64,000 nucleotides of DNA from Paraphysomonas bandaiensis. Taxonomy: Eukaryota; Protista; Chrysophyceae. Under the pieces are notes generated by a model, which did not search any database, had not been told where the DNA came from, and was given only the letters and a program-made list of their open reading frames with translations. The stretch lies in the NCBI GenBank assembly GCA_965644295.1, contig CBFFRP010000059.1:1-64000 (forward strand), given 5' to 3'. Both the position numbers and the translations under genes were made by a program. Positions within the stretch are counted from its first letter, which is position 1, and every line of letters starts with the position of its first letter. Of this stretch, positions 12,511 through 39,309 are shown piece after piece.

Positions 12511-12854
12511 GTAGATATCAAGATACACAACACACTATGTCTAAGTGACAATGATTGACATGCTTTAATAGACCATCCTTATTTACATCGATCGTATAGG
12601 GCACAGTGAGAAAGCAATATATCATACATTCATATAAGAAAGTCTGATTATTACATGAGAACGGTTGTGTACAGAAACTAGTATTACACCTATAGACTGA
12701 CTAAACTGGACTTGCTATGTAAGTCACCACTACTACTTAAAGTAGTAGTATTAGTACCTATGTTCGGAGACGACGCGGCAGCAGCGGTGGAGGATCATCC
12801 GCAGGTAGTGAATCATCATTTCTTCTCATAAAAAGATCACGAAGTTCTGCTAGT

Positions 12855-13180
12855 ATATGGGTATAGTGAGATGGTATAGTGGTATATAGTGAGATGGTTT
12901 AGTGATGCATAGTAATATGGTATATGGGTGTATAGTGAGATGGTATATGGGTGTAAAGTGATGGTTATAGTACATACTTGTGAAATGTACGTAATATATA
13001 TGTGTAGTCGGTGACTTTTATTGCTGTAAAACTGAAGTAATATGGAAGTAATTAGTAAAAAATATTATAAATAGTACTTTTCACACTGTTAATATCGTCA
13101 TAGTTACATATTGTGCATAGTTTTACCCTTTTCCAACCATCATCAAAAATTTCACCAGGTTTTGGTATTACCTCGACTTA
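12855..13180 (-). repeat. Isolated copy of the arm repeat that flanks the ParA cassette
   Basis: Reverse complement of ~27764-28100, including the GTATAGTGAGATG iterations. Confidence 0.85.
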
Positions 13181-13239
13181 ATGTTAACATGTCAAAAGCT
13201 GTTAATCCCGGTGTATTTCATCGGTGGACCTCAGCAAAA

Positions 13240-13952: not shown

Positions 13953-14173
13953 GATGCAGCCCAGCCTACAAACCACACACTGCTCATAAAACGCTATACA
14001 ACATTAGTATCGTTTATAGAGAAGAGTACTAGACAAATCAAATCAGCATACACACTCGAAAGAACAGAAAACACACACTCGAAAGCGATATATGAATAAA
14101 ATCGATAATAAAAAATAGCCAGCTTGAAAACTGACTATGCCTAACATCGGAGGAAATGGTTAATACACATACC

Positions 14174-15371
14174 TTACCAATCTTTCAAAACTACAGACGC
14201 CTCATCAGGCTCCTCAATGTACTCTGAATTTTCGATCTTTTTCTTCTCTTTCTTCAGTAGTCTCCACGTACTGAAATATCTTGTTCTCTGGGAGTGGAAA
14301 TAGAGAAATGCGCCTTCTTTTTCTAAGAAAGCGCGTCGTGATATTTTAATCGCATCAACTCTTGATTTGGCTCTCGATGCCAGATAAGCAGTCCAGGCAT
14401 CACTACTGGTAGGGGGAGATTCGGACGCCTGCTGTAGTCGATCGTACAGCATCTCCTGAGCTGTCGACTCTATCATGGCGCTAGTTTCGTTAACAAACGT
14501 CATGGGATCACTGCTATCATTATGACTATAAGCTCCAATTAAAACACAGACGGCTTCGACAGCAGTCTGCATGAAGGAATCTTCACTGTTCCATTGATGT
14601 TCTCGAGGGCAGTTACCTAGTCAAACAATGAGTTTATAGAAAACAAATATTTGACTTACCATCTTTCAAGGAATTTCTTAATTCCTCCTCGAATGCACTA
14701 TCCAACCAGGGGGTCTGGTCGGTATAAAGAGCATGATAGCATAATCTAATCTTCGTTTTTATATTATCAGCCACCTTTCGCACATATTTCATTACGTCTC
14801 TGTAAACTATGTGAGACATGTAATAATAACAGACTCAATCAAATACCTCGATGACGAAATCGCAGCTATGACACCGCTCTGAAGCATTGTTTCATTCGGC
14901 ACAAATGCTCCTTCTTTACAAGCTAGTTAAAATGCCTGTTATAATTAAGTCACATACTTATAAATATATTAAATTCACCTTATTATGGGGAGCTTGCATA
15001 TCAATTCCGTTTTTTGATATTAATGCAAGTATCAGCCGCATGAGGAGTTCGAAGTGTTCCTCAATGGGAGATATTTCCCCAGTGTCCAGTTTATAATGTA
15101 ACCGAGCATACATCATCTCCTGATGATACGGGAGAAAGCTTGGGGATGAGGCAACCACGGCGGCACTCTGCTGCCCCACGACAAGATCTTCCCGGTACAA
15201 AACTGTCGACAATAACTTCGTCCTTACGTTCTTCGTCCGAAGACTGACTTAAGGTTGCAAGGTTTCAATTTCTGACGATGAGTGACATTGCTCAGGTATA
15301 GTTATATTGGGCCTGCTGCACAGAGGCTTCTTCCTGGGAGGTGACTGTGCAGTACAAAATGTGCGATCCAT
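14174..15371 (-). pseudogene. Second (accessory) gene of the CMC element, multi-exon, with in-frame stop
   Basis: Track ORFs 14174-14572, 14634-14819, 14958-15212 and 15249-15467 are linked by GT-AG introns; TAA at 15249-15251 interrupts ...ETLQP*VSLRTKN. Confidence 0.55.
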
Positions 15372-15696
15372 TTTACGGTTTCCACTGCGCTGCGCCATCT
15401 GATAACGATAATGATGATAATGATGATAATGAATACGATAAATATGATGAAATAATGATGATTGCATATATATATATATGACTGTTTATGGAATTCATCT
15501 TTCGGAAAGTGAAGAGACATTCACATACTCTCACTTCGACTTCGAAGTTCTCACACTTCGACTTCAGAATCATTCTTCAGTTTGTTTTTTATGGGACTGC
15601 TGTATACATGGTATACATATACACATAGCAGAGCACATACGTATGTACATATACAAAACTGTGCAGAGGGATACACAAAGGTGTACACATGTACAC

Positions 15697-17914
15697 ATGT
15701 ACACTGTTGGATGCAATGTGTGTAAACAAGTTTTTGATTCAGGTCAGAGTTTGTCACGTCATGAAGATATTGCTTGCTATCGGAGAACTTTTTACCGAAT
15801 AGAAAGCGAAAGACTTCAGCAGATAGTGGTCCTCAAAGCTACATCATTCGTGATGACGACAGTAGTGATGATGAGTACGAAGGAAATTCCCGCTTTGCAT
15901 GTGTTAATTGTGAGTATCCGCTGAGGGGTGGTGTTTTTTATAACCCACAGATTCATCTCAAGAGAGATGGACATACAATTGCTGAACGCTGTCGAAGTCT
16001 AAATAGTGGTCGGCTATCAGACAAGGAAGAGAAGGCTACTCGAAAGTCACTCGATGATAAATGCATCATGCCCTTCGTGAACGCCTTTCATCATTCGTTT
16101 ATGGGCTGCAACAACCATTGTTTTAATAATCCTCAGGACTTGTTTCACCTATTTTGTGCTGGCATTGCAAAAAGTCTTGGTCTTTGGATTCTTACCATTG
16201 TTGATAGCACAAGCAAAACTATGGACCCGACTTTCCACAACAGTAAGGGTGTGCTGGATGGTAGACTGATAATGATACCTCAAGTTCCGAATATGCCACA
16301 TGTAAATTGGACAGTCTTCAAGAAAGGGCTAATGCACATTATCTCTACTAAAAGCAAGAAAGATAAAGGCCATTCCACTGGTTCTGGAGGATATCGATCA
16401 AGCGAATTCATTACGGCACTTATACAGCTTTTATTTGCGGTAGGTTTTTAAAAATTCCACGGTTCGTATCACTTTCCATGAGTTAGATAGGCACAGATGG
16501 CCAAGTTTTACCAACAGCTACGAACTACGTATTTTGTTGCAAGAATACACGGCCCCGACGCGTTGGTAATTTGACAATGAAAGTTCTACAAGCAATTAAG
16601 GCGGTATTGAACGTCTATTTTGAGTGTAAAAGATGCTGTTTCACGAACCCTGATATTCTACATGTGGAGCTTACATGCAATGATATGGTTGCAAAGGTTT
16701 TGCTAGTGTGGGACTTGAAGCAAACACTTCTTAACAACCAGCCATCATTTCCATTGATGCGAAAGCTTCATTCTGTTATGCATCTTTCATTTAACATTGC
16801 CATGTTTGGAGCCTTATCAAAGGCAGATGCTGGCTCTTGGGAATCGAGCAATCGCTATTTTACAACCGATAACTGGCGACGCACAAGTAGGAGATATGCT
16901 TCCTCAAATGAGGAGATGCTAAAATTATCTATCTGTCAAGATCATTCTCGAGTACTGGAGTTTATTGCTGCATGCCACACTCATGACAATGCGTATATAA
17001 ATTCACTAAAGCCAGAAGTTCCACCTGAAGTTGTTTTAGTATATCCAATGTGTAATGTAAAGCATGCAACTCTATGCGTTGGTGCAAATGGCTACTTATT
17101 CGCATGTGAAGAAGAGATAGAGTTGAATGATTTCATCGGGCACAAGGAATTAACAGTTTTTTCTCTAACAGATTTCTGTAGACGAGCTCTGGGTGAACAG
17201 AACTGGAACAGCCTATGTCGTGGTGATATATCTCTTAAGCTTATACAAGCTCTCACATACCACGCAAACGAAGAGAGTGGTATCGGCAAAGGAAGTCATC
17301 ATGCAATGAAGAAGACGAGGCGGCGAAAACAACGATTTGATTTTATATTCATTCAACTGGAAAATGGAGACAATCAACTGGCCCAAATAGTATCAATGTT
17401 ACAACTGACATTTGAAAACGACATCAAGTATTTCTATATTGTTCAGTATATGGAACCGTGTGAAGTGAGTAGCCTTGCTTTTTTCCCCAAATACAGATGG
17501 GAAGTGCGTTACAATCGCCGACGCCAGCAGATATTTTGCCACGATATTATTGATTTTGAAAATATTCTTGACACAGCATTTATTATTCCAGATTTTGCTC
17601 ATGATGTAATTGCTGGAGAGCCGAATACAATAGATAGATTCTGGTATATTCCGAGGAAATTCTTTGACCGTTGTGGGTGGAATGATTTGGAAAATGCTGA
17701 CTATAATCAGACCGAAGATATGGAGGTATATATGAACAGGAATGGCTCTGGTGCAATAGAAATGCAGCGCAATATTATCCAAGAAAATAACCATGCTGCA
17801 AATAACATGATCGATTCTGACACTGATGACTCCTTACTTTCAGAAAACGAAAGTACAAGGAGTAGTAGTATATCTAGTGCCAGTGGCTCTGATAGTGAAG
17901 GTGACGGTATGTAA
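15697..17914 (+). pseudogene. EnSpm/Plavaka-like transposase, frameshifted and apparently internally deleted
   Basis: N-terminal C2H2-like finger CNVCKQVFDSGQSLSRH; frameshift ~15780; QDLFHLFCAGIAK and RKLHSVMH...FGALSKADAGSWESSNR motifs typical of CMC transposases; intron 16440-16486 joins the two ORFs in frame. Confidence 0.8.
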
Positions 17915-18034
17915 TTCTATAATTTATATTCCCCTGCTTATTTAAGTGACGTGAATAGTCATTATTCACAACTATAGTACAACTTACTGGTAATGGAATT
18001 GATTGCTAGCCATATAGGCACAATGCTTTATCCG

Positions 18035-18760
18035 TCCTAGGTAGATAGGCTATACTTCTTATAGGTAATGTGGGCTAGCACCTATAGGTAGATGACAACT
18101 AAGCTATAGGTATTACCTACGGCTGAGGTACCTATACGTATGATGTTATGGTTCCTATAGGGAATGTGGGCTAGCACCTATAGGTAGATGACAATTAACC
18201 TATAGGTAATGCCTGCGACAGAGGTACCTATAGGTATGATGTTATGGTACCTATAGGTAATACCTACGGCTGAGGTACCTATACGTATGATGTTATGGTT
18301 CCTATAGGTAATGTGCGCTAGCACCTATAGGGAGATGACAATTAACCTATAGGTAATGCCTAGGGCCGAGATACCTATAGGTAGATGACAACTAACCTAT
18401 AGGTAATACCTAGGGCTGAGACACCTATAGGTAATGTGGGCTAGCACCTATAGGTAGATGACAATTAACCTATAGGTATTACCTACGTCTGAGGTACCTA
18501 TAGGTATGGTGTTATGGTCCCTATAGGGAATGTGGGCTAGCACCTATAGGTAGATGACAATTAACCTATAGGTATTACCTACGGTCGAGGTACCTATAGG
18601 TATGATTTTATGGTACCTATAGGTGGTGAGACATAGGCACCTACCTATAGGTAGGGTCGCTAGGAATACCTACAGGTAGGTACCTAATAGGTATGTACCT
18701 AATAGGTATGCATGAACTACCTATAGGAAGTTCGAAGTACCTATAGGTACCTAATATAGC
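18035..18760. repeat. Right subterminal array: CCTATAGG palindromes separated by four recurring linker types
   Basis: Linkers TAATGTGGGCTAGCA, TAGATGACAA(C/T)TAA, TA(T/A)TACCTACGGCTGAGGTA and TATGATGTTATGGT recur in near-cyclic order. Confidence 0.92.
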
Positions 18761-19329
18761 CCACCGATGTTCTTATGTGCGGCGCCAAGCAAGCTCTAGC
18801 TAGATCTACATTATACTTGATACTTGCGTGGCTCATACATGATTACGAAAAATCCCGCATATTCAGAGGTAGAGGGCAGCAAAGCCAATACTTTGTTATA
18901 CTTACACACAGTACAGTCATGGGTCATACATACGAGAGCACTCGCGTATTATTATACAAAGGAGTAGGGCATATGATCTTTCTAATAAACTAAGTTTTAG
19001 TATTATTGTCATTCGTTGGAACAGGAATACCGACGCTCTATATGAGAAGCCGACATGGCATAGGAAGTTGACGTATGTAATTTAATTTCTCGTTGACATT
19101 GTGTTATTTTACTATTATATAAATACATCTTACATAGAAAAGAAAATAGTTCGGTACACATACTATAATATACAGGCTGTCATATAGTGCGTGACTTAAA
19201 TTAAAACACAAAACAACAACCATAGGGTCCAGAGTACGAAGCATAGAAGAAACTCCTCCATTCACCCCAAAAAAGAGGGCTCAGTAACAAAACAAATCAC
19301 CAATTTCAACACATCTCCACACATAGCAT

Positions 19330-20549
19330 AAGTACTCAATAATCTATATCCCATGGATTTAGAGGTTCCTGTGAACTACATCCAAGTTTTCGTTTCCATC
19401 TTCAGCAGCGACAATGCAAACTCCTACATTCCATGGACATGGAGGGTCCTGTGAACGAAGTCACTTAAGAACATCTAAGTGGCCACCAGCAGCAGCTTCG
19501 CAAATGTCTTCATTCCATGGACATGGAGGGTCCTGTGAACGAAGCCACTTCAGAACATCCAAGTGGCCACCAGCAGCAGCACTTTCGCAAGTGTCTTCAT
19601 TCCATGGACATGGAGGGTCCTGTGAACGAAGCCACTTCAGAACATCCAAGTGGCCACCACCAGCAGCACTTTCGCAAGTGTCTTCATTCCATGGACATGG
19701 AGGGTCCTGTGAACGAAGCCACTTAAGAACATCCAAGTGTCCACCACCAGCAGCAGCTTCGCAAGTGTCTTCATTCCATGAACACGGAGGGTCCTGTGAA
19801 CGAAGCCACTTCAGAACATGCAAGTGCCCACCTCTAGCAGCTTTACTACAAATACTGCGTTCATGCCATGGACATGGGGGGTCCTGTGAACGAACCCATT
19901 TCAGAACATCCAATTGTCCACAAGCAGCAGCAGTTTGACAAGTCGAATAATCCCATGGACATGGAGAATCCTGTGAACGAAGCCACTGCAAAACATTCAA
20001 ATGTGCACCAGCAGTCTCACTACAAGTGAGTTCATCCCATGGACATGGAGGGTCCTGTGAACGGAGCCACTTCACAACATCCAAGTGTCCCTCAGCCGCA
20101 GCAGTAGTACAAGTGAATAGTCCCCATGGACACGAAGGGTTTCGTGAACGAATCCACTTCAGAACATCTAAGTGCCCACCACCAGCAGCAGAAAAACAAG
20201 TGTCGTCAGTCAGTAAGTATATGTGCATAGGGTCCTCCATATGTGGAGGTGTGTATATGAGGCTCAGGATGTATTTCATCTGCTGTAGTCTGCCGTATTG
20301 TGCACATGTGTTCATTAGTTTGGTGTGTGGGCAGCCCATAGACAGAGCCCATGAGACCATTGAGTTGGTCATACAGTAGTGAGATGCATGTGACTGTACT
20401 CTCCTCTTATCAGTGTAGACTATATCGTGAAATCTCTTACAAGTTAATATCACTGGAAGGAGAGCTCTGTGAGGGATCATAGAGATGATGAGACGAAGGA
20501 CATCATCATTAAGATCAGATATATGCGACATATACGAACACTGATTCAT
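19330..20549 (-). CDS. F-box-like plus CPW-type ankyrin repeat protein, intronless, with premature TGA near the 3' end
   Basis: ISDLNDDVLRLIISMI (F-box-like); 29-aa repeats LRSQDPPCPWNEDTCESAAGGGHLDVLKW; the repeat continues past the TGA at 19461-19463, which falls at a Trp position. Confidence 0.85.
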
Positions 20550-20859
20550 CGTTTATATGAGGCTGATAGAGTGTTACAGCAGATGAGTATGACTGATATG
20601 TATGTATATACATGCTGTGTGTTATTAAGATAGCGAGACGTCAGTGCAGTACACAGTGCTATAAAAGTGATGAAACCAAGTCTAAAAGTGGAGATTTTAT
20701 TGATTATATTATTATTGGGTATTTTTACATTGTTTAAAACCTAGATATTTTTATAAAATCCACTCACTAATTTAGAAGATGAAAATCCCAAGTTTCTGAA
20801 AATCTAGCAGAAAAGTATCTAACGAAAAGTCCACCGGGCGAACAGTTCAGCAGTATACT

Positions 20860-23650
20860 GTAGGAAGTAGGGTCCCCACTAATGCCGGTTTTTTAGGTGT
20901 TTTCAGTCAATCACAGTTTCAGTCACAGAGTGGCGATGACGTTAGCAAATACGTCATCAGATGTGGAATGATTTTGTGTGAGATGCATTATAATTGACCA
21001 GCTTGATTCATGATTTGGATCTCGAGTTATTCATGTCCAAAGTGAGTGCCCTTAAGGGGTTTTTCAGTTATCTTTTTTTTTAGGATCCTATTAGTGCCGG
21101 TTTTCATGACCCGCCTCACTCCACTGATGACAGTCCTTCACACACTCTACACGATACATCAACACACCATGTGACTCTGAGGACACAAACAGCATTCTGT
21201 ACTAATTCAATAGTGCTGGACTCGAATCCGAGGCCTAATTCCCTCAAAACATTGAATGTAGCCCGATATTTAAGACTCTGTGTAGCACACATGACTGTGT
21301 GTATCACCTGGAATACAAACACCACGTGACTCTACACAGCCTGTATGTTTGTAGAATGTAGCTCTGTAGATACTGTGCACTCATAATTGTGTATGAATTT
21401 TGTATGATATCATCATTACGTTCCTATTAATCCAAAGCAATGCACCTACCTCAATACTAGAGGTTGACACGTATGCAATCATATGGGCAGCAATTCCGAC
21501 ATTTCAGATAGTGATGGTGATGTTAGTAATGGTAAAAGAATATATATCACTATATTTGACACATTGGTCGACGAAGCGCGTGTTGGAATGCACTGTAAGC
21601 GCTGGAAAGGGACTATCCACTGGCCAGTGTTCAGATGATGCTGATTGGTGACTTCGGATCAATTCAGTAGATAGTTCTTGCGAAAGTAGCTAGTAGTGAA
21701 TGTCTGATTATTAGCAGTAGGCGTGTAAGAGTCAGCACTAATGTAGCCAAGCAATATAATTAACTAGTGCTTAACTAAGATATCCTACTATTTGGCGCTA
21801 CGAAAGCTGCTTGTGCGTCACCACAAGCACCATGGTGCAGCCACTTTCCCTCTCTGTCCTTAAGGTGAATAGCCCGGATGCATGGCTTCAGTATGCAGTC
21901 CAATACCCCAGATACTCTTGAGGTGGGCCCATTCCTGTTTAATAGTCAAGGCCCAAAGACGTTTATACGAGAAGTGACACTTATTTTGTCCCGTGTATCA
22001 CACAAACATTCTGCTATGAGTGGGCAGAACAATATCTGCTTACTATATATGGGGCTCACGTTAGTTTCCCGGAGAACTCAGAATAAAAGGTGCGATTCAG
22101 ACTTTTTTGAGGGCGAAGGTAGCTAGCAGAAGTAAGTAGTGAAAGCTATGTTAAAATCAAGCACTAGAGTAGAAGGCAATTAATTGCAACGACAATAATT
22201 GGATTCTTGGGTAGTGTTTGCATCTCACCAATTAATTTTTTCGCAACCCTGGTAAGTAGTAGTGGAAATAAGATTCAAGTATTAAAAGAAATTAATAATG
22301 AGTATAGGAGATATTTATATTGAGTACTCTTATAGGAGAAAAATGTGGTGTGTAGTTGTTCACATATGGCAGGTGTAAAGGTGTGCAGTTCACACATCGT
22401 TTACATGATATAAACATATAAACTACTACAAATATTAGTATTCGCGGGCGGGGGTGATCCAGCCCTTCTCATGGAAATATGCCGTGGTGCTCTTGATGAG
22501 AAGGCAGAAGTCTGAACCCCCCTCATACGGCTCCACATAATACCATGTGTTTCATCCTCGGCTGCTCTTCCACAGCCACCTGGCGCTCCTGTGAGAAACC
22601 AGCGACAGAACAATCCGAATGTCTGGAGAAGCCTGGCGTCACCGGAATTCAAAGCTTTCCGGGAACCATAAAGTTGGAGCGAATTGAACTCTTGCCGCAA
22701 TAGGCCTCTTCCAACCGCATGAATGTGAATGCACATGTAGTACTTCCTACATGAAGCGCTTATGAAGATCAGACGTCTAATCGGTCCAGAAGTTCAGACG
22801 TCGAGGCCATAATATCGCGGTCAACGCTGTTGGAAATATGGCTCTGGGTACGACCAAGAGGGAAGACCATATCCACAATGGTGTAGTTGGAGGGTCTTTT
22901 GCAGAAGTAGCGAAAAGAGGACGCATCTTCGGTACTACCAAAGTCTAGCCGAAGAATATCCCGAAACTGTGCCCTATCATCGATTGTGTGTACAATACAG
23001 CACCATACTTTTCCAGTATGATTTCTCTTCCAGTTGTGGAGATGACACCCTTCAACAAGGCAACTAGATATACATGATATTATAAATCGTAGACATATAC
23101 ACAAGTAGATAAGCACAAAATAACAACTACCTTGCAAACAAATATTTTGCGCTCCTTCAGAGTGTAGATTCACCGTAGAGAGAGGAGCTTAACCCCAGTT
23201 TCATACCTCCAACCATGAGACCTCTCTCTGGTCATAGTTGGTATGTTTCCATCCTTCCTAGATACTTTATCAGGCAAAGGCGAGTCTCCCAATGATCAAA
23301 GTACACGATTCACTACTGTCCTATGAGGCACATAGTCAGGAAGATCCCTTGTTGTTGCGATATCGCTGCTGACTGGTCGATGGTCCCAACAACGGCATGG
23401 ATTCAGAGCCCCTACGTTATGTATTGGGCACGAGCTTACATTGATACTGTTGTGGCATTGTCTGATATGAATGGTGCGCAGTATAATGTGCAACCTTATG
23501 TGCAATGTGCGACTCAGTGCATGTATGTATGAGAGATCTGCCTGAAGTCAGTTAATCTTCATACCAATCGTGCACTTTTCTATAAAAAAATCGGCACAAG
23601 CAGGAACCAAAAAATCTGAAATCGGCATTAGTTGGGACCCTACTTCCTAC
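20860..23650. mobile_element. 2.8 kb TIR-bounded element with decayed coding content, family unassigned
   Basis: GTAGGAAGTAGGGTCCCCACTAATGCCG at 20860 and its near-perfect reverse complement ending at 23650; degenerate minus-strand ORF pieces at 22401-23505. Confidence 0.7.
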
Positions 23651-23920: not shown

Positions 23921-26444
23921 ATGTCTACTACTAGATTTCCTCTATTCCCTAAATTCCGTCGATCAACCTTTACATATGGGAGATTAGACGAGTCTCCATC
24001 TCCATATGAACATACACATAATCGAAGATATTCAACTAAATATCAAACAATTCAACAAAAAATTAAATCCTTATTAGAATCCCCACAAAAACAACTGTAT
24101 AATATATGCAGAGAAACTGGATCTGTATCTGATATGCAAAAAATTATTCATCGTAAATGGCGCTTGAAGATCATACATAAAAATGATGAGGTGAACTATA
24201 TAGTTATGTATGATGTTATATATAATGTATACTGTAATATAGCAAATGATTGATCAACCGATTCATGAAGCTGCTTTTAATGGATTTATTGAGGCTGTCA
24301 AATTTTTAGTTGATGAAGTTGGAGTGGATGTTAATGCTGTTACTGCTGTGAGTTATACGGTAGTTTACTGTATTCATGTATCATGTGATATGTGTAGGGA
24401 GGCCACACACCACTTATATTGGCATGTATAGGTGGACATGTTGATATCGTGTCGTACTTATATGAATCTGGGGCGAATGCGAATTTGACCTCTCGAGATG
24501 GCGCATCCCCTCTGCATTGGTTTGTTGCATTGATACAATCTTATTTATACTGATAATAATTTTTGTGGTTGCAATATTCTCAGGGCATCTCTGAATGGTC
24601 ACTTTGATTGTGTACACTATCTACTTTCTTCCACGGAGCTGACGGCGACGGCATCCACTTTCACGGGCATGCCGTCCTTGCATCTCGCTTGTGCAATGGG
24701 CCATGTCCATGTGGCCCGGCTAATGATTGAAGAGTTTTTGCTGCCTGTGGAGTTCGTTAATGAGGTATACGTTTTGCACTACAATTCCTGTTGTCTAGTT
24801 ATATATCTTAGGATGGAGACACAGCGCTGCATTATGCTTCATTTGAAGGAAGGGAGGCAGTTGTTAGGTACCTGGTGCAGGCCGGAGCAGATCTCTACAG
24901 CAGAGATAAGGTTAGCAAATACCATGCATATTGGTTAACCTACGTGAATTACACATGGTATAGGCGGGGTATACGCCTCTTCATCTGGCAAGCTCAAGAG
25001 GACATGATCATGTCGTTGCTTATATTCTCTCATGTACGCCACGATATGAATAATGCCTGCATGAGATAAGTATGGTTGTCTGCAGGTATTGGCCCAGGTG
25101 CGCTGCGGTCTATTGATTTGACTGGAGCTACTCCATTGCACCAAGCCTGCGCAGGTGGCCACGTGGACACAGTGAAAGTGGCCATTAATAGATTCCCAGC
25201 TAATAGAAGTGGCTCTGAAGTGAGCGATACATCTGTATTGATGATAAGAGACAAGGTTCTGAGTTTGATGTATTTGCTCGCGAGTAATTTTCTTATCAGG
25301 AAGGGAGATCCTGTCTGCATGCAGCTGTTGCAGCGAATAAACTCAGAATGGTCATAGTTCTTGTAAAAGAATTTTCGTGTGATGTGGAGGCTCTAGATGA
25401 GGTGAGAATGAATATGTGTCCTATGTGGAAGATTTATATTGATTTCCTCTGCAGGACGGCTATACCCCCTTTTTAGTGGCGGTTTCACACGGAAACCTTG
25501 AAGTTGTTGTAAAATTCGTGGAAGAGTTTGATGTGGATAAGTTCATATTGAATAGAGTGCGTTTCTATATACTGTGTATATTGTATTTTGACTATTGTAT
25601 GTACCACAGATGGGATATGGTGCTTTACATATTGCTTGTGAAAAAGGGCATAGCCGAGTGGTTCAGGTGACATCCTTTACTGCTGTATACCATACATAAT
25701 CCAGTCTTATACTTACGTTTGTGCAGTATTTGGTTAAGGCTGGACTGGATCCCAGGCAACGCTCTAGATCAGGAGATTCCGCTCTTTTTTTGGCCTGTTA
25801 CCACGGTCACTTGGAGGTGCATACTTCAGCCTCTTTTTTTGATGTATTTACAGCTATTCTTTCGCCTATTAGATTGTCCAGTATCTCCTTCAACAGCACG
25901 GAGTTCATAGAGAGTGCATAGATAATGTATGTTTTGAATGATCTACTCGTGATGAATATAATATTTGAAAATCAGGACAACAAGAGCACACCACTGATTA
26001 CAGCATGCATGAGAGGTCACCTGGAGTTAGTACAATATCTCATAAGTACAGCTATGGTACAGATGACCGCAGTTGATAAGGTATGGAAATACTTATGTTT
26101 CATTGAATAAATACATTGCATGATTCAGTTTGGGAGGACTGGGCTGCATTGGGCATGTGCCAACGGAGCTGTGAAAGTAGTAAAGTATCTTTTATCGGTG
26201 CCAAATTCATCAGAATTACTATGGATTAAAGATCTGGTAAGTGTTTCTAGACAAAGGTAATTCTTTTGAGTGTTATACTTGGCGATAGGAAGGGAGGACT
26301 GCTGCAGATTTGTCAGTTAGTCAAGAAGTTGACCAATTACTTCATAAGGTAGATGTGTGTAATACCCACGGTGAACGAATAACAACCTACCCATTTTTGT
26401 ATATTAAGGCGATAAAGTACGACAGTGGGAACAAGAAGTATTGA
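23921..26444 (+). CDS. Multi-exon ankyrin repeat protein (many ~50-nt introns)
   Basis: Successive exons encode QPIHEAAFNG, PSLHLACAMGH, TPLHQACAGGH, SALFLACYHGH, TPLITACMRGH and TGLHWACANG; the last exon ends GNKKY-TGA at 26444. Confidence 0.85.
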
Positions 26445-27354
26445 TTGGGCGACATATTTTGTAGATGTTTTAGAGGTGGCTTTGCTGTTTTGTATATTTT
26501 CACTTCTTAAAGTTGCGATATAATTTTAATTTCTTAAAGTGTCAGATAATTTGACTTCCATTCTCAATCAACGAAACAAGCAGCCATAATTTTCATATAG
26601 TTCTGCTGTATAAAAAACTCAAGCATCATAGACAACACAATAGATGAACAATAGATTCCATTAAGGACAACGATTTGAAAACCTAATTTGATATTGAACT
26701 GCTTAATAACAAATCCAGACTAGTCAATTTATCGTGTAGAACATTCTCATAAGAGACATTCTATTTACTATAGTACCTTGACGCATTATTGTGACCGACG
26801 TATGATGCCAACAATTTCATTTATAGTTACGTCATTTTTTTGTCTACTGTGTGCATATTGACTGTTGCTCATTTTATCACTTAGATCGTTGAAGTAATAA
26901 TATTAAGTTGTCAGAGTAGGCTATAGATAGATTATTATTATTGTGCACGCAATTGTTGTCATTTCTCTTAAAGCTCATCGCCTAAATTATCTTAGCATTC
27001 TGAATGATGCTTCAGTTTTACAGTTATATAGCTCTACAGTACTTAGTCTACGTAATACAGTTTTCATATTGTAATTAACGTATAATACAGTTCTGTTTAG
27101 AGGAAGATACGTATTCCATCAGTGCAATTACACGAATATAACTTACGTATGATGTCAATAATTAACGTAAGAAATGATACACAAATCATTGAGAAATATA
27201 GTAGTAAACTATTCAAGGTGTTACATAATCTTATGAATCCAGGACTTTTTCAGCGGTTTATTTAAGAAAGAATGGTTTTTTACGTATGGTACAATTAATT
27301 GGTATCTTAAGGCTAGACAATCGACTTGTGTTTGCTCTGGTTAGAATCACCTCT

Positions 27355-27600
27355 CCGAAACTAAGAAGGCGGCTTATTCCTATCTCATAGCCAAATGCTT
27401 GTGTGGTACGAGGGACATTATCTTATAGTCACCCATCGTAGCCTGATTTCTCCACTTTGGACTAGTCACCGGCCTGAATGCATCATTGATGTGTTTATAC
27501 TGTGATACGCAGGGAACGGTAATGAATGTTGAGACCTCTATAATGAGAAGCAGGAATGCCATTTTCGTTTAATATAGTTTTTAGCGCTGAATATGAATAT
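27355..27600 (+). repeat. Internally deleted copy of the repeat at ~33535-34760
   Basis: Shared blocks AAGAAGGCGGCTTATTC, ATGCTTGTGTGGTAC and CTGATTTCTCCACTTTGGACTAGTCACCGGCCTG in the same order and orientation. Confidence 0.8.
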
Positions 27601-27752
27601 GCAGTGAGAACCAGGTGGGAAGCGCTGAACTAAAAGCAATGTGTACGTGTAGACAGAGGCGCGCGGTCGCAACACTCACTAGACGGTGAAATGCAGTATA
27701 TAATTACGCTGTCAATATAGGCACGATTCACAACAAAAAGGAATCCCCTGTT

Positions 27753-29564
27753 CAGATTTCTTATAAGTCGAGGTAATATAATATACCAAAACCTGGTGAA
27801 ATGTATAAAACCTGGTGAAATTTTTGATGATGGTTGGAACAGGGTAAAACTATGCACTATTAGAAACTGTGGAGATATTAACAGTGTGAAAAGTATTATT
27901 TATAATATTTTTTACTAATTTCTTCCATACTACTTCAGTTTTACAGCTGTAAAAGTCACCGACTACACATATATATTACATACAGTTCACATATAGAACC
28001 ATCTAACTATACACCCATATACCATCTTACTATACACCACTATATATACAATCTGATCTCACTATACACCCAGATACCATCTCACTACATACCACTATAC
28101 CATCTTACTATACATCACTATACCATCTCACTATATAACACTATACCATCTCACTATATAACACTATACTATCTCACTATGCATCACTATACCATCTCAC
28201 TATTCACCACTATACCATCTCACTATTCACCACTATACCATCCCAATATATACCACTACACCATCTCACTATATACCCATATATACTATCCAACTATACC
28301 CATATACCATCTCACTATACACCATTTGAAACCACTCTAAATTAGGCAAGACAAAACAGATTTCTTATAAGTCGAGGTAATATAATATACCAAAACCTGG
28401 TGAAATGTATAAAACCTGGTGAAATTTTTGATGATGGTTGGAACAGGGTAAAACTATGCACTATTAGAAACTGTGGAGATATTAACAGTGTGAAAAGTAT
28501 TATTTATAATATTTTTTACTAATTTCTTCCATACTACTTCAGTTTTACAGCTGTAAAAGTCACCGACTACACATATATATTACATACAGTTCACATATAG
28601 AACCATCTAACTATACACCCATATACCATCTTACTATACACCACTATATATACAATCTGATCTCACTATACACCCAGATACCATCTCACTACATACCACT
28701 ATACCATCTTACTATACATCACTATACCATCTCACTATATAACACTATACCATCTCACTATATAACACTATACTATCTCACTATGCATCACTATACCATC
28801 TCACTATTCACCACTATACCATCTCACTATTCACCACTATACCATCCCAATATATACCACTACACCATCTCACTATATACCCATATATACTATCCAACTA
28901 TACCCATATACCATCTCACTATACACCATTTGAAACCACTCTAAATTAGGCAAGACAAAACAGATTTCTTATAAGTCGAGGTAATATAATATACCAAAAC
29001 CTGGTGAAATGTATAAAACCTGGTGAAATTTTTGATGATGGTTGGAACAGGGTAAAACTATGCACTATTAGAAACTGTGGAGATATTAACAGTGTGAAAA
29101 GTATTATTTATAATATTTTTTACTAATTTCTTCCATACTACTTCAGTTTTACAGCTGTAAAAGTCACCGACTACACATATATATTACATACAGTTCACAT
29201 ATAGAACCATCTAACTATACACCCATATACCATCTTACTATACACCACTATATATACAATCTGATCTCACTATACACCCAGATACCATCTCACTACATAC
29301 CACTATACCATCTTACTATACATCACTATACCATCTCACTATATAACACTATACCATCTCACTATATAACACTATACTATCTCACTATGCATCACTATAC
29401 CATCTCACTATTCACCACTATACCATCTCACTATTCACCACTATACCATCCCAATATATACCACTACACCATCTCACTATATACCCATATATACTATCCA
29501 ACTATACCCATATACCATCTCACTATACACCATTTGAAACCACTCTAAATTAGGCAAGACAAAA
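27753..29564 (+). repeat. Three apparently identical tandem copies of a 604-bp unit containing ACTATACCATCTC iterations
   Basis: CAGATTTCTTATAAGTCGAG starts at 27753, 28357 and 28961. Confidence 0.95.
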
Positions 29565-29859
29565 CTATAGATTTCAAGAATGCAATATATCAATATCAAA
29601 TACTTTACCCTATCCCTGTTGTGTTAGTTCTATGTTAAAGAAAATTCTTTCGACTAATAATTAATTATAACTATTAAATCAACCCCATCAGTGCGCATTT
29701 AGTATACTCCAAATACATACTATTAATAGTAGCAGACACATATACGAGATAATCCATCAGAGGAATTTCAATTGAATGCAATACATATTTTGGGTTACAC
29801 TTAAGTTATAGTTTGAGGTGTGAATAATACATCAGACAACACTCTCTCGTATTATATAG

Positions 29860-32129
29860 TTACACCCTTTTCTTCTTCTTCAAAAACCTACCGTCGGCAT
29901 CATATTTGGTGTTCAGTGCTGTCTTAATCGCATCAAGCATCATTTTATTCGATATTTTACTTGAAGCTCGTTTTTTTCGACACACCCGTTTGTATACGCC
30001 TATCAATTGTCCTCTAGCTGATAATCCGTTGAGCTACAATAAAATAGATTAATGTGATGACAGTAGGTGGTTGAATGTGAATATATATGTATACAACTTA
30101 GCATGAAGAAAAGCACTCTATTACGCACTCTATTCTCGGCAATAGCATTCCGAAAGTCGATTATTTCATAAGGAAAGCAGGTACTTTTACGAGTGTGGGG
30201 TTTAAGCCAATCATCATCTGTGAATACGTTCCGTTCGGTAGGAGAAGGACGGCGGTTACGGGGTTTATATCGCCAAATATCGTTGTCTTCATTTTCAAGG
30301 CGAGGGTCATCCACCAAAACTACCGTAGAGTCATCTTGCACACGTATATCAGGAGGATAGTCAAAACTTATCCCACGATTTTTGAAATCTTCTGCAATCA
30401 CGGCAAGGATATTCCACGCCGTCTACCATGAACAAGATCAAATTATATATCGAATACGCCGATGCCATTACATCACGTGTATATGTAACTCACCTGTTCA
30501 TATGTGTGCAAGAAATCGATTACTCTGTCTTCTGAGTCACATTTAATAACTCGATGCTTAGGTAGAAATGGAACGGGAATTGACCAGTTATTTGCAATTG
30601 ATTGGACAGATCTAGCATTTCTAAATTTGCCGAGACATACCAACAAATTGAGCTGCCTATACACAATATCTTCCACTGCCATATTTCTTTCCAGCAACTT
30701 TCCTCGAGTAATACTAAATGTTTCCATAATTTTCAACATCTCATATTTGTCTGCAATACTCGGCTGATCTGTAGTAATACCCTGTGCATATGTTCTATCG
30801 ATCCCATGGGTGCTTATATAATTATTTGCGATGTACCCCATTAGCTTGCACTTTTTATCAGGGTAGGGGTATTGAGATTCCCTAGACATCGCCACATTCA
30901 ATTCTTGACGTTCTAGCCACCCATCTTCCTCCAAAATAACATCTGCAAGTTCTTCAATTCCTGTCCGAGTGAAGTCATCATGCCCACAAGGCATCAGCAA
31001 ATAATCACTGCCCATAATAATGTTTTCATTTAGTGACCCCAAAGAGCAATTCATGTCAGTGATAACGATATCAGCTTTGCAGTCACGAGCAGCGTCACCG
31101 ATTAAGTTATGCGGAGCTCCAATAATTTTGCGGTTGAATCCACTCCATCCTTCCCGATGCAGTCTAGATCCCTGGGGATTTTCTTTAATTGCTGCGTCTC
31201 TTGCCTCCGTGAGAATTTTATCCAATTCGTAGGTACGCGGGTGTCCAAGTAGTAAACGAAGGGAAGCCATGTTCTGCACACATGCATATATCACAATATA
31301 AACACCATATATCAATACTCATTGCTCAGGGTGACCATACCGTGTAGGGGGATCGTCTGTTTGAACTTAGCACCTCTACAGTCTCCACTCTCGGAGTGTC
31401 TCGGCTGTCGTCTTTTTTAATCTTTTTAATGGCATCAATAAGAGTTTTCTTGACAAGGGGCTCTTCGGATTTAATGAAGTCTTTATATTCAGTGTCACTT
31501 TCAGCGATTAGATTGCTCATCAGAAAACGGGACGCATTGCATTGAGAGTCCAGATCAACTAGTAAAACATTCTTGTTGTAGACACGAGTAAAAGTGTGTG
31601 CAAGAGCAGTAGACAAAGTTGTTTTACCCACCCCACCTTTTTCAATGTGAACAGCTATAGTAACAGGCTCACCAGTCTCGTTGGGTTGATGACCAGCTAC
31701 GTCTCGAGCTCTTCCTGATAAAGTTTCATTACCAACACGACTTATATCATAAGTATCATCTAATAGTCTCTGCATTTCATCTTGTAAATCGTTTTTCATC
31801 TTTTTGTATTGTTTAAACTCTTTTTTGTTTACTTTTCTACTTTGTTCGGCTTTGGTGTACCATGCATCCAATAGATTTACAAAGTATCGATTAACACGCA
31901 TACCAACTTGTGTTGTTTTCATATCTTTATATTCTTCAGTAATCTTTTTAAGAGCTTCACTTGCAATATATGCAGTCTCAAAGCCTTCTGGTGTGTCATT
32001 ATCATCTGATTGTATTTGATCACACTCATCATCAGATAACTCAATATCATCCTCATCACAATTAGATGATGAAGTATCTATTTCAATAATTTGTTCTCCT
32101 TCTCTATTACGTTTTCCATTTCTTGGCAT
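29860..32129 (-). CDS. ParA/Soj-family (deviant Walker A) ATPase, 4 exons, ~678 aa
   Basis: IAVHIEKGGVGKTT, VLLVDLDSQCNAS and DIVITDMNCSLGSLNENIIMGSDYLLMP motifs. Exons 32129-31341, 31273-30494, 30422-30129 and 30033-29860 join in phase 0 through GT-AG introns and end ...FLKKKKRV*. Confidence 0.88.
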
Positions 32130-32640
32130 ATTGAAGTAAGGTATTGTATAGTAATGTTTGTTAATGTATGTATATTATGATATATAGATATGACAAACAT
32201 ACATACATGATGCATACATGCATGTTGTCCTGTGATTCAATCTAAATTTAGGACATTACTTGGAAAAATGCTCTTTTTGAAAAGATAAACTGAAAACTTT
32301 CCCTTGAGGTTGCTATGAAATTGAAGTAAACGAGATTGTATTGTTCAAAAAGTTGTATTCCTTTCTTCCAAAAACTAGGAATATTTTATATATGTAGGAT
32401 TTTATTCCTGTACATATCCGAAAGTGACCATAGCATGCCACATGCTTGTTATACACACAAGAGGCATCTACACTCTAGTCTACTGTACATACAGTCCATA
32501 TCTACATACATGCATGCATATCTCTATATATAAACACTTTCATTGAAACAGTAACCAAACACAATCACTTACCACTCATTCCACCCACTATTCATATGAA
32601 TCTATACTTCATATTTCTCATGACTCTCTCTATTAATCAG

Positions 32641-32937
32641 ATCGTGGGCCAGGTCTTATCAACAAGCTAAAGTAAGTCTACATACGAGGCATCATACAAA
32701 CAGACCATCGTATACACTATTAGATCAAATATTGCATGTATTATTGGTGGAATATGCGGAGGAGTAGCAGGCTATTGGCTTGGCACAAGAAGATCATCGA
32801 AACACTATCAAACTATAGAAGCAAAGAATGATGATCTGCTAGAGTACATCGACCTTATGTGCGATTCATACGATCCGAATTACAGTCACAGTCAGAGTGT
32901 AACTGATCCGGATACGGTCCGTTCCGTCCCTCTATGA
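32641..32937 (+). CDS. Small spliced single-pass membrane protein with glycine-rich TM segment; first exon not identified
   Basis: Exon 32641-32671, intron 32672-32723 (GTAAGT..TAG) and exon 32724-32937 give RGPGLINKLKSNIACIIGGICGGVAGYWLGTRRSSKH...VPL*. Confidence 0.55.
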
Positions 32938-33034
32938 ATCTTATCAATAACAACCCGAACAGACACCACATTTGTTGTTCATGATACCCGCATGTTGATA
33001 TCTACTTCATAGTGATGTATAGAAATATGTGATA

Positions 33035-33204
33035 TGGGGGTATAGTGAGATGGTAAAGTGGTGTATAGTGAGATGGTAAAATGGTGTATAGTGAGATGGT
33101 TATAGTTCATACTTGTGAACTGTATGTAATATATATGTGTAGTCGGTGACTTTTATAGCTGTGAAACTGAAGTAATATGGAAGCAATTAGTAAAAAATAT
33201 TATA
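33035..33204 (-). repeat. Inverted copy of the 604-bp-unit arm (right arm of the ParA cassette)
   Basis: Reverse complement of ~29109-29300: GTATAGTGAGATGG iterations, then GTGTAGTCGGTGACTTTTA...TTAGTAAAAAATATTATA. Confidence 0.88.
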
Positions 33205-33534
33205 CGTACCTATAAAATTTATTCGCTGTTAAGGGTGCATAATCGATAAGTGAGGAAGTTTCATGCACATGACCATGTTGCAGATAAGCTAGCTGATCAC
33301 TACATAGGAAATTAATTCTACTGACGTGATATATGCTGCGTTGGTTTCACTTTACCTGCTCTGTGACTTCATCGTTTTGTAATGCGTAGTTATATGCGAG
33401 TACATTTTATGACTAGGTTTATAACTAAAAATGACTAGGTTGAATCATTTATTACTTTGACTAGTAGGTTATTCCACCAAAAAAAACTAGGTAATTCAAC
33501 CAATTTTACTACAGTAGTAGGTTGAATAATATTC

Positions 33535-34760
33535 CCTCCGAAATTAAAAATGTATGTATAAAGAAGGCGGCTTATTCATATCTTCATATAGTCAGCAGAT
33601 ATAGTTCTGCCCACTTATAGCCTAATGCAAGCGCAGTGAGTACGATGGACACTAATAAGTGTCACTTGTATACTTGTATAGACGTATAGACCCTCAACAA
33701 AGTCGGACTCGCACCTTTTCGTGGTGTTCTGGGGGATAAGTACCGGAGTTATTTCTCTGGGAAACTAACGTGAGCCGCAAACATAGTCAGAAGATATTGT
33801 TCTGCCCACTCATAGCCGAATGCTTGTGTGGTACAAGGGACACCAATAAGTGTCACTTGTGTAGACGTCTTTGGGCCCTGACGAATAAACAGGCATCCGG
33901 GACTGGGTCCACCTCAAGGGCATCCGGGACAGGGCCCACCTGAAGGGTAACCGGGGTATTGGGCTGCCTACTGAAGTCAAGCATCCGGGATGTTCACCTT
34001 AAGAACTCAGAGCGGAAGTGGTCGCACCTTGGTGCTTGCGGCGACGCACAAGCAGCTTCCGTAGCGCTAAATAGTAGGATAAAAAAAGTGTGTACTGATT
34101 AGTTACAGGTAGAGGTCTAACTAGTTTGTCTAGCATTCATCTAGCTACTAAGTTAGTGCAGGTTTTTAACGCCTATTGCTAATAATAAGACTTTCAATAT
34201 AGACGTATAGACGTGTTTGGGCCCTGACGAATAAACAGGCATCCAGGAATCCTGAAGCCAAGCATACGGGCTGTATACCTTAAGGACTCAAACATCTTGA
34301 AGTTTGCAAATATCAGATATATTAATATTCTACTTGCTCACTGCGCTTGCTTTGAATGATAGAGCGAAAGTGGTTACACCTTGGTGCTTGCGGTGACGCA
34401 GAAGTAGCTTTCGTAGCGTTAAATAGTAGAATAGTAGTATATCAGAACATCAGAACTAAGCACTGACTCTTAGACGCCTATTGCTAATAATAAGACATTC
34501 ACGACATTTCATATCTTCTCAAGATGAGATTTCTTTCCCGAAACAAGCCGCAAGATCAATTTGATAGCCACCCACAGCAGCTTGAATATAACTGATTTCT
34601 CCACTTTGGACTAGTCACCGGCCTGTAGGCATCATTGATGTGTTATACTGTGATACGCAGCGAACGGTAATGACACGTTGAGACCTCTAAAATTTAGTAG
34701 CTATTAGCTGTGTATGTGAGAAGCAGGAACGTCATTTTCGTTTAACATAGTCAGCAGCAC
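33535..34760 (+). repeat. Composite interspersed repeat with internal duplications; pieces also at ~5460-5690, 21690-21870 (inverted), 52635-52830, 56675-56850 and 60225-60380
   Basis: Recurrent CCTTGGTGCTTGCGG(T)GACGCA and CCTATTGCTAATAA..AGAC blocks. Confidence 0.8.
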
Positions 34761-35162: not shown

Positions 35163-36065
35163 CTACAGCTTATTAAAATAGAGGGTAAATACTGCATCTG
35201 GCTCATCATCTTTGTTTTCACGACCATTTACGTAAAGTTCTCTCCGTAGAACTAACGAAGTACCGTTTACTTGTCGGAGGTTAATGACAACAAGAGAGGA
35301 TTTAGAGCTTTTAATAAATGCCTCTACGCTGCAGTCACTTTTCTGAATAGCTCGAGTTCTGATTGGATTATTTCTTCTATCTGTTGACGACTTCCATGAC
35401 CCATCCATATTGAAAGAGACAGTCCATGAGCCGAAAAATGGAACAGAGTTGGTGATTTCCAGTGAAGTATCGTCATGGGCGATAATAAGCCGCAATGGTT
35501 TCTTATGTGCTCCAATAAAGAGTTTACGAAACGGCCACGGAACACCATATTTAACAAGCCAGTTAGTCATATCCGCGACATCTATTCTCTCTGGATCCAT
35601 CTGCCATACCCCACCCATGCCGTCCTCACCTTTACCTTCTGACTTGGATTCAGAAGCATCTAAAACTTGTTGCTCACGCAGCACTCCAGTGGCATATGAT
35701 CCCATATGCTCAAAAAAATGAAGCTCATCAGTTGTCTTCAAAAATAACGGAATAAATTCATCATCACCACTGGAAGATACGTATTCCCGCACACAGTCAT
35801 ATACCTCACTTGCAGATACATTATTATCATGACAAAAACGGTCTAATTCATCATCCAAAATCTCTAAATATGAATTAAATACATCTTGCCATTCTAATTT
35901 ATGTCCTCTTCCGCTTTGAATATATTCTTCATAGTCTTGAAACTCTCTGTAATTAGCACGAAAGAATGTCTGGACTTTATTAATATATTCAGTAGAGTTC
36001 GTATATGCAACTAAACTCTCAATTAGAGGGTGTAGATGGGTAGTATCAGTAGATTTACTCTCCAT
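35163..36065 (-). CDS. BART (ARL2-binding-like) domain fused to a lipocalin/FABP-like domain
   Basis: HKLEWQDVFNSYLEILDDELDRFC (BART-like); GGVWQMD...WLVKYGVPWPFRKL followed by beta-strands (FABP-like). Confidence 0.7.
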   Translation of the reverse strand: MESKSTDTTHLHPLIESLVAYTNSTEYINKVQTFFRANYREFQDYEEYIQSGRGHKLEWQDVFNSYLEILDDELDRFCHDNNVSASEVYDCVREYVSSSGDDEFIPLFLKTTDELHFFEHMGSYATGVLREQQVLDASESKSEGKGEDGMGGVWQMDPERIDVADMTNWLVKYGVPWPFRKLFIGAHKKPLRLIIAHDDTSLEITNSVPFFGSWTVSFNMDGSWKSSTDRRNNPIRTRAIQKSDCSVEAFIKSSKSSLVVINLRQVNGTSLVLRRELYVNGRENKDDEPDAVFTLYFNKL

Positions 36066-39130: not shown

Positions 39131-39309
39131 TATGGGGTGGTTGTGCATATCGATTTTATTGATTTGTTCATAGTTTATTTCATTGAAAAGTCACCGTTTT
39201 CTCAGTGAAAAGTGAAAAAAAGTGACTTTTTAATGAAAAAACGATGACTTTTCAATGAAATATACAATGAACAAATCGATGAAATCGATATGCACAACCA
39301 CCCCCTGTA
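39131..39309. mobile_element. Fully palindromic MITE, probably Tc1/mariner-type
   Basis: GGGGTGGTTGTGCATATCGATTT ... AAATCGATATGCACAACCACCCCCTG followed by TA; the arms pair almost to the centre. Confidence 0.85.

What the first reader, a model, noticed from the sequence alone, without database searches (positions are those of the whole stretch)
27753..33204. Candidate new element: ParA ATPase plus small membrane protein between iteron-rich inverted arms
Seen: two divergent genes are bracketed by inverted copies of one repeat (left 27764-29564, right 33035-33204), whose inner parts are arrays of ACTATACCATCTC/ACTATACACC motifs. A third arm copy at 12855-13180 shows the arm is dispersed. The cassette is further flanked by direct copies of another repeat (27355-27600, 33535-34760). 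No transposase is inside. Known: ParA ATPases act with centromere-like iterated sites to segregate prokaryotic plasmids. Inference: a mobile or episome-derived eukaryotic element carrying a partition-like module, or a foldback/Pack-type transposon that captured it.
Basis: partly seen in the sequence, partly recalled or inferred. Interest (0 to 1): 0.8.

Follow-up and report, generated by a model that had tools for sequence, protein, structure and literature searches.

The report
Defence-type ParA gene amid transposon ends
A eukaryote carries an intact, intron-containing, apparently single-copy gene for a bacterial-style ParA ATPase whose nearest relatives are predicted to serve defence rather than DNA partitioning; the inverted repeats around it belong to an abundant repeat family, likely transposon ends, so this is probably a host gene in a transposon-rich spot rather than a new plasmid-like element.

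Summary
The arms and the ParA-like gene are real; the partition-element reading is not supported. The left arm is three identical 604-bp units. The right arm is a 196-bp fragment that lacks the family's sharp outer end and is no closer to the left arm (92/99) than to a third, unpaired copy (98/104). In Logan contigs the arms lie roughly 100 times deeper than unique DNA, while the cargo is one unitig at host-gene depth (35.8 versus 32.3 and 41.4). The ParA gene has two homology-supported spliceosomal introns and intact ATPase motifs. It groups with a Balamuthia protein and two unplaced proteins (SH-aLRT 97 and 98), next to a ~350-aa bacterial ParA family. In bacteria that family stands alone in prophages or is coupled to a HEPN RNase gene (71 of 74 loci); ParB was found in 0 of 63 neighbours. 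A 2026 preprint describes such conflict-type ParAs and two eukaryotic standalone clades. Best reading: a host gene of bacterial origin, likely acting against selfish DNA, among immobile foldback-type transposon ends. A decayed Pack-type element that once moved it remains possible. Function is untested.

The parts
27753..29564 (+). Left arm: three identical 604-bp units (27753-28356, 28357-28960, 28961-29564). Each has 11 bp of outer flank, the family's outer terminus (from 27764), a ~235-bp unique part and a 23-bp minisatellite (11.7 copies)
   Evidence: A 145-bp unitig at 28213-28357 has depth 98.8, three times the ~33 of unique DNA, so the triplication is in the reads
27764..27790 (+). Sharp outer terminus of the repeat family, shared by many dispersed copies
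   Evidence: X1 summed depth rises from 32.3 (27721-27747) to 1262, 4033 and 9295 in the next three bins; 15 X3 contigs run off into unlike flanks (agreement 0.56); the third copy stops matching at the same place
29860..32129 (-). Standalone ParA-like (SIMIBI) ATPase gene. Exon 1 32129-31341, intron 67 bp, exon 2 31273-30494, intron 71 bp, exon 3 from 30422; a third intron and a basic last exon ending at 29860 are inferred. About 660-685 aa, with an acidic/helical N-terminal extension of ~150 aa and a C-terminal extension
   Evidence: the alignment to P0039 (27% over 431 columns, E 5e-32) runs across both first introns
32596..32937 (+). Small ORF, possibly a 96-aa membrane protein if a 51-bp intron (32653-32703) is spliced; may instead be a fragment or pseudogene; has a diverged paralogue elsewhere
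   Evidence: stop at codon 25 unspliced; 19-residue hydropathy peaks 1.43 and 1.39. Paralogue letters, table 3: 7 codons changed, 3 synonymous, 4 non-synonymous, 0 stops
33009..33204 (-). Right arm: truncated inverted copy (2.7 minisatellite units plus ~100 bp), lacking the outer ~140 bp and the terminus
   Evidence: unique unitig 33158-33368 at depth 35.4
12853..13180 (-). Third, unpaired copy of the arm with an intact terminus
   Evidence: no partner found in 1-12852 by self-blastn
27349..27600 (+). Short degenerate copy of a different dispersed repeat
   Evidence: 27443-27578 matches 34592-34751 at 79% over 161 columns, plus 34- and 28-bp pieces
33535..34760 (+). Composite of dispersed repeats, containing a very abundant 812-bp element (33691-34502)
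24243..26441 (+). Left host neighbour: intron-rich ankyrin-repeat gene (limits approximate)
35163..36065 (-). Right host neighbour: ARL2-binding (BART) domain gene
   Evidence: Pfam PF11527 2.6e-10

Best explanation
This is an intact, intron-bearing, apparently single-copy chromosomal gene for a standalone ParA-like ATPase, likely acquired long ago from a bacterial conflict-type ParA family and likely acting against invading DNA, flanked by leftover ends of an abundant repeat family that are probably foldback-type transposon termini and probably can no longer move the cassette. Shown: gene structure, ATPase motifs, host-like depth, abundance and truncation of the arms, the neighbourhoods of the bacterial relatives. 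Inferred from ParA biology and Li, Burroughs and Aravind 2026: ATP-dependent dimerisation, non-specific DNA binding, and coating or sequestering of viral or mobile DNA, probably in the nucleus (basic patches at both ends, no organelle-type N-terminus; by inspection). Inferred for the arms: the 23-bp array is a transposase-binding subterminal repeat rather than a centromere; copies collected here by local hops and end deletions; the left one then triplicated, probably by slippage at a 7-bp microhomology.
For: Cargo is one unbranched 3534-bp unitig at depth 35.8, against 32.3 and 41.4 for host unitigs in X1; 27-38 against 28-33 in X3. Arm bins reach 3758-5343 in X1 with a sharp shared terminus. 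Core identities: left-right 92/99, left-third 89/99, right-third 98/104; right and third share a junction that left lacks. Two GT-AG introns keep the frame open and homology crosses them. GC3 is 0.27 and 0.38, against 0.32-0.42 in 6 other ORFs taken as host genes. Motifs KGGVGKT, DLDSQ, DIVITD and the late N are present. In two quick trees the protein groups with Balamuthia P0061, P0039 and P0010 (97, 98) beside the ~350-aa family (85, 93). That family occurs in 67 IMG/VR loci, beside repressor, lysis and umuC-like genes with ParB in 0 of 63 neighbours; 71 of 74 GTDB loci share one downstream gene, HEPN_RiboL-PSP in 8 of 8 tested. Best solved relative by sequence and fold is the uncharacterised DIP2308, 3PG5. 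The preprint describes standalone prophage ParAs and two eukaryotic standalone clades.
Against: Three arm copies in 64 kb is unlikely under even scattering (P about 0.0007-0.06 for assumed 50-300 copies in 50-84 Mb). The two inner arms have exactly the outward orientation of one element's ends and start 72 bp and about 295 bp from the two stop codons; this favours a shared history. The neighbouring 13207-18775 element has the same layout of arrays around divergent ORFs. No synteny or empty allele could be examined. Summed contig depth is not a true copy number, and X1 may be the window's own source. The trees are quick searches with long branches, and the bacterial rows were collected with a profile built from the same four proteins. 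The defence role is a prediction from neighbourhoods; PADLOC gave only P-loop-level matches.
Confidence: 0.55

Rival explanations
1. A decayed Pack-type or foldback transposon: the two arms were once the ends of one non-autonomous element that captured the ParA gene and the small ORF and carried them here; the right end was later deleted. The protein itself would still be the conflict-type ParA.
For: Outward orientation and tight fit around the two divergent genes; local excess of arms; the small ORF has a diverged paralogue elsewhere, as captured fragments do; Pack-CACTA elements hop locally, lose one end and capture the DNA between them (PMC6379663, abstract and passages).
Against: Right terminus absent and no target-site duplication definable; the arms are no more alike to each other than to the third copy; no second ParA copy at >=85% in X1; the ParA gene looks whole, not a fragment.
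Confidence: 0.28
2. An integrated episome or new mobile element whose ParA partitions it by way of iteron-like arm repeats.
For: ParA motifs are intact; iterated 23-bp units flank the gene.
Against: No depth excess; the arms are a dispersed family about 100 times deeper than the cargo; no ParB or DNA-binding adaptor match in the cargo, and no replication gene; relatives lack ParB and are rare on plasmids, 23 of 72,556 records at E<=1e-30; the exon 1 piece scores 40.6 bits against a cut-off of 180 for NCBIfam ParA_partition (a piece, not the whole protein).
Confidence: 0.04
3. An organelle-division or positioning ATPase (MinD-like) recruited for housekeeping.
For: MinD genes of bacterial ancestry occur in algae and plants (PMC3160578, passages); the fold is shared.
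Against: NCBIfam minD_bact 18 bits against a cut-off of 212.9 on the exon 1 piece; the Q after DxD marks the ParA branch, not the MinD branch; the N-terminus is acidic and basic rather than targeting-peptide-like (by inspection); tree position.
Confidence: 0.04

Closest known systems
Eukaryotic standalone ParA clades Euk1/Euk2 and bacterial STP lineages, ConB1 assemblage (Li, Burroughs, Aravind; bioRxiv 10.64898/2026.10.19.760177; abstract, sections 10, 12, 16, 17, 41 and passages read; figures and supplements not seen)
   Same: Standalone ParA in a eukaryote, related to standalone prophage ParAs; KGGVGKT and DxDxQ motifs; predicted defence role.
   Different: The text names metazoans and photosynthetic eukaryotes; my nearest named relative is an amoebozoan (Balamuthia: 0 mentions in the main text). 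Long N- and C-terminal extensions here. Membership of Euk1 or Euk2 could not be tested without the supplements.
ParA/Soj-HEPN (MAE_18760 / RiboL-PSP-HEPN) dyad, 'ParA-effector' systems (Anantharaman et al. 2013, PMC3710099, passages; Li et al. 2026, section 16)
   Same: The bacterial family next to the window protein in my trees carries this HEPN gene directly downstream in 71 of 74 loci of one mostly cyanobacterial branch.
   Different: No HEPN-like sequence in the window (best E 2.4 over 1486 six-frame segments) or in the spliced protein; the partner could lie elsewhere in the genome.
ParABS plasmid and chromosome partition systems (definition in PMC8987985, passage)
   Same: Deviant Walker A ATPase next to iterated DNA.
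   Different: No adaptor protein, no replicon, and the repeats are a dispersed family.
Foldback transposons such as Tetris (PMC4079207, abstract and section 17) and Pack-TYPE elements (PMC6379663, abstract and passages)
   Same: Modular arm with a shared outer end and an inner tandem array; rearranged and amplified copies; no transposase inside.
   Different: Right terminus missing, no target-site duplication, superfamily not assignable, cargo single-copy.
DIP2308, PDB 3PG5 (uncharacterised structural-genomics protein)
   Same: Best solved match by profile (E 1.6e-22) and by fold of the exon 2 model (E 3.6e-4, TM 0.44).
   Different: Bacterial, 361 aa, about 18% identity in the fold alignment; it tells nothing about function.

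Membership tests
ParA clade (Li et al. 2026, section 10) | Walker A KGGxGK[ST] | tested here: met
   KGGVGKT at residues 164-170
ParA clade | DxD after strand 2, Walker B DhhhhD, lone N of the NKxD motif | tested here: met
   DLD at 192, DIVITD at 331, N at 413
PriB1 branch (ParA proper, includes ConB1) | Q two positions after DxD | tested here: met
   DLDSQ; Q invariant in 11 of 11 rows
PriB1 branch | N at the start of the Walker A region | tested here: not met
   I in the window protein and I or A in its three nearest relatives, N in the 7 other rows; my reading of which position the preprint means rests on its text, not its logo
ConB1 conflict assemblage | Conserved V within Walker A | tested here: met
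   KGGVGKT; not diagnostic, since V is also in the 3 outgroup rows
Euk1/Euk2 standalone eukaryotic ParA | Standalone ParA in a eukaryotic nuclear genome | tested here: met
   Introns, host neighbours, no partner found in the window
Euk1/Euk2 standalone eukaryotic ParA | Sister to a bacterial STP lineage | tested here: inconclusive
   Sits beside a clade that mixes standalone prophage and HEPN-coupled members (93); quick tree, long branches, STP members not identified by accession
Euk1/Euk2 standalone eukaryotic ParA | Nesting among the published Euk1 or Euk2 sequences | not testable with these tools
ParA-effector (HEPN) system | Coupled or fused effector gene | tested here: not met
   HEPN profile finds nothing in the window; exon 3 and the N-terminal extension match no informative Pfam or PADLOC family
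ParABS partition system | Centromere-binding adaptor (ParB-like) | tested here: not met
   None in 4 cargo pieces; 0 of 63 neighbours; 0 of 5 records
ParABS partition system | Centromere-like site specific to the replicon | tested here: not met
   The array belongs to a dispersed family roughly 100-fold deeper than the cargo; binding itself was not tested
ParABS partition system | Autonomous or extrachromosomal replicon | tested here: inconclusive
   Depth equals host DNA; contigs drop rare forms, so a rare circle is not excluded
Foldback / TIR transposon | Long modular end with inner tandem repeats and a sharp terminus | tested here: met
   (left and third copies)
Foldback / TIR transposon | Both termini intact around this cargo | tested here: not met
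   Right arm lacks the outer ~140 bp
Foldback / TIR transposon | Target-site duplication | tested here: inconclusive
   Cannot be defined without the right terminus
Pack-TYPE element | Internal DNA derived from host genes with a parental copy elsewhere | tested here: inconclusive
Pack-TYPE element | Other copies or empty sites showing movement | not testable with these tools
   No assembly; only contig tables, which are cut
MinD | MinD profile score, PriB2 motif pattern | tested here: not met
   18 bits against 212.9 on the exon 1 piece; Q after DxD present

The most novel reading that the evidence does not exclude
The window protein, the Balamuthia protein and two unplaced proteins form a further eukaryotic lineage of bacterial defence ParA, outside the two published clades, and here it rides in a foldback/Pack-type transposon: a mobile anti-virus ATPase module that coats invading DNA in a genome that also shows a virus-like insert.
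Probability: 0.1. Interest if true: 0.7.

Novelty: new member of a known kind. Interest (0 to 1): 0.3.

Why it matters
A 2011 review notes that ParA-type filaments are not conserved in eukaryotes (PMC3160578, passages), so a working eukaryotic partition module would be striking. The evidence here points elsewhere. The gene adds an intact, intron-bearing, very divergent example to a class of eukaryotic standalone ParAs predicted only in October 2026 and never tested, and it ties that example to a HEPN-coupled and prophage-borne bacterial family. It is a usable candidate for the first test of whether such ATPases defend eukaryotic cells. The repeat anatomy also shows how an ordinary transposon end can mimic an iteron array.

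Tried and rejected
Word-indexed protein searches with exon 2 found nothing at near lengths (576 candidates) or longer lengths (1280 candidates); this is weak evidence of absence. No RNA holder was listed. The one run guessed to be RNA covered a neighbouring spliced host gene and the small ORF's paralogue but not the ParA exons; this is no evidence on expression. The single-sequence fold of exon 3 failed (pLDDT 35). The Atlas could not read exon 2 or P0039; P0061 returned only bacterial ParA clusters. Rfam gave two low-complexity miRNA matches far below threshold. The arm has no notable internal hairpin (one 10-nt pair), so a Helitron or Helentron end (recalled anatomy) was not supported. The idea that the triplication is an assembly artefact was rejected. 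The idea that the flanking direct repeats are LTRs was rejected as short, degenerate and dispersed, though the copy number of the shared 161-bp piece itself could not be read. The careful tree did not finish; quick trees are reported. Of 67 viral loci I examined 36 (near-duplicates and the weakest dropped by eye) and scanned 63 of 232 neighbour ORFs. Paper searches listed nothing on this gene class by title or abstract start; one search found the preprint; one search gave the transposon papers. No complex prediction was run.
Full report
Setting. The window is eukaryotic: short spliceosomal introns, and ankyrin, kinase-like and BART-domain genes. The finding lies between an ankyrin-repeat gene (about 24243-26441) and a BART-domain gene (35163-36065).

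The arms. Self-comparison shows that the left arm is three letter-identical 604-bp units, 27753-29564. A unitig inside the unit has depth 98.8 against about 33 for unique DNA, so the triplication is in the reads of X1. Each unit has a unique outer part and a 23-bp minisatellite; the motif occurs 27 times against 0.10 expected. The right arm, 33009-33204, is inverted but lacks the outer ~140 bp, which is found nowhere on that side. A third copy at 12853-13180 keeps the terminus and has no partner to its left in the window. In the non-repetitive core the identities are left-right 92/99, left-third 89/99 and right-third 98/104, and the right and third copies share a junction that the left lacks. 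The differences are small, but nothing marks left and right as a matched pair.

Abundance. In Logan contigs the cargo is one 3534-bp unitig (29536-33069) at depth 35.8, beside host unitigs at 32.3 and 41.4; the arm bins reach 3758-5343 in X1 and 15,439-21,945 in X3. Depth jumps from 32 to over 4000 across 27764, and 15 X3 contigs run off there into unlike flanks; it falls to 216-631 at the inner end. The tool warns that summed depth is no copy number, and X1 may be the window's own source, so I take this only as an order of magnitude: about a hundred arms to one cargo. A sharp shared outer end followed by an inner tandem array is the anatomy described for foldback elements (PMC4079207, abstract and section 17). 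That the arm is a transposon end is an inference; no transposase or target-site duplication was found. Against pure chance: three copies in 64 kb has P of about 0.0007-0.06 under assumed copy numbers and genome sizes, and the two inner arms point outward and hug the genes. Local hopping with end loss, as seen for Pack-CACTA (PMC6379663, passages), would explain both the cluster and a past capture, so a decayed Pack-type element stays a real rival.

The flanking 'direct repeats' share one 161-column match at 79% and two pieces of 34 and 28 bp; parts of the right-hand stretch recur at five other places in the window, and its 812-bp core reaches a summed depth of 279,000. They do not look like LTRs.

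The ParA gene. Two GT-AG introns of 67 and 71 bp join three open exons, and the alignment to P0039 (27% over 431 columns, E 5e-32) crosses both junctions. A third intron and a basic last exon are inferred. Walker A KGGVGKT, DLDSQ, Walker B DIVITD and the late N are intact. GC3 is close to that of other genes in the window. Among the 150 listed hits (474 in all), the best full-length matches are P0061, named from Balamuthia mandrillaris, P0039 and P0010; P0066 is from Palpitomonas; 2 of the 10 proteins looked up carried a eukaryote name. A profile of the first three plus exon 2 retrieves a ~350-aa bacterial family (378 hits at E<=1e-10, 120 listed). In two quick trees the four eukaryote-like proteins group at 97 and 98 and sit beside that family at 85 and 93. 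Branches are long and the sampling is biased by the profile, so the sister relation is suggestive only. The closest solved structure is the uncharacterised 3PG5.

What the relatives do. They occur in 67 IMG/VR loci. In 36 of these, 63 of 232 neighbouring ORFs were scanned: repressors, lysis genes, umuC-like and toxin-antitoxin genes, 2 HEPN genes, no ParB; ParB_N was absent from 5 of 5 whole records, while the control found it in 10 of 14 genomes. Only 23 of 72,556 plasmids carry a close member; the 3 opened have no annotated parB within 4 kb, and two lie by Abi, RES, toxin-antitoxin or umuC genes. Of 80 GTDB loci around P0211 relatives, mostly cyanobacterial, 74 had a downstream ORF and 71 of these belong to one family, HEPN_RiboL-PSP in 8 of 8 tested. 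This matches the ParA/Soj-HEPN dyad predicted as a toxin-antitoxin pair in 2013 (PMC3710099, passages). No HEPN-like sequence lies in the window.

Prior description. Li, Burroughs and Aravind (bioRxiv 10.64898/2026.10.19.760177; abstract, sections 10, 12, 16, 17, 41 and passages; figures and supplements unseen) place ParA-HEPN systems and standalone prophage ParAs in a conflict assemblage, ConB1. They report two eukaryotic standalone clades gained by horizontal transfer, for which they propose defence against selfish elements. The window protein fits that kind by motif, context and neighbours; whether it is Euk1, Euk2 or a further lineage is open.

The small ORF has a stop at codon 25; removing an inferred 51-bp intron gives 96 aa with two moderately hydrophobic stretches. 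A paralogue differs in 7 codons, 3 of them synonymously and none by a stop (from a cut table). It matches no DNA-binding family and is not a plausible ParB substitute.

Mechanism and verdict. Most likely (0.55) the gene is a domesticated conflict-type ParA that dimerises on ATP and coats foreign DNA (inferred, untested), and the arms are immobile transposon-end relics. A decayed Pack-type carrier has 0.28, a partitioned episome 0.04 and a MinD-like role 0.04. New member of a recently predicted kind; interest 0.3.

Noticed in passing
window 13207-18775: Element bounded by imperfect inverted ends, with long ACCTATAGGT arrays (13242-13954, 18056-18769) around two divergent intron-bearing ORF sets. 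No Pfam match; its His/Glu motifs recall CMC/Plavaka-type transposases (recalled, not tested). More arrays at 52466 and 56170-56600. It abuts the third arm copy.
   Followed up: partly
window 33691-34502: An 812-bp repeat with sharp ends and diverse flanks in about 100 or more contigs per end; summed depth up to 279,000 in X1, that is thousands of times unique DNA. Class unknown; no Rfam match.
   Followed up: partly
window 1-4500: Low-GC block (26-32%) with intronless ORFs, a NUMOD4-HNH-AP2 endonuclease gene (3598-4104) and a 197-bp imperfect palindrome at 4292-4488; looks like the end of an integrated virus- or Polinton-like element.
   Followed up: no
window 52400-62900: Three diverged copies (91-97%) of a block of over 1 kb with related short ORFs.
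   Followed up: no
window 19461-20549: F-box plus tandem ankyrin-like repeat ORF with an 87-bp coding repeat.
   Followed up: no
proteins P0002, P0015, P0033, P0066: Long proteins with two tandem ParA-like domains, one from Palpitomonas; they fall outside the window protein's group in the tree.
   Followed up: partly
window 39134-39304 and 7337-7438: A 171-bp palindromic MITE-like repeat with a partial second copy.
   Followed up: no
L001:3846-4877 and L003:6730-7338: RelA/SpoT-domain genes beside the prophage ParA relatives in 2 of 36 loci, recalling the ParA-Tox-RelA pairing of the preprint.
   Followed up: no
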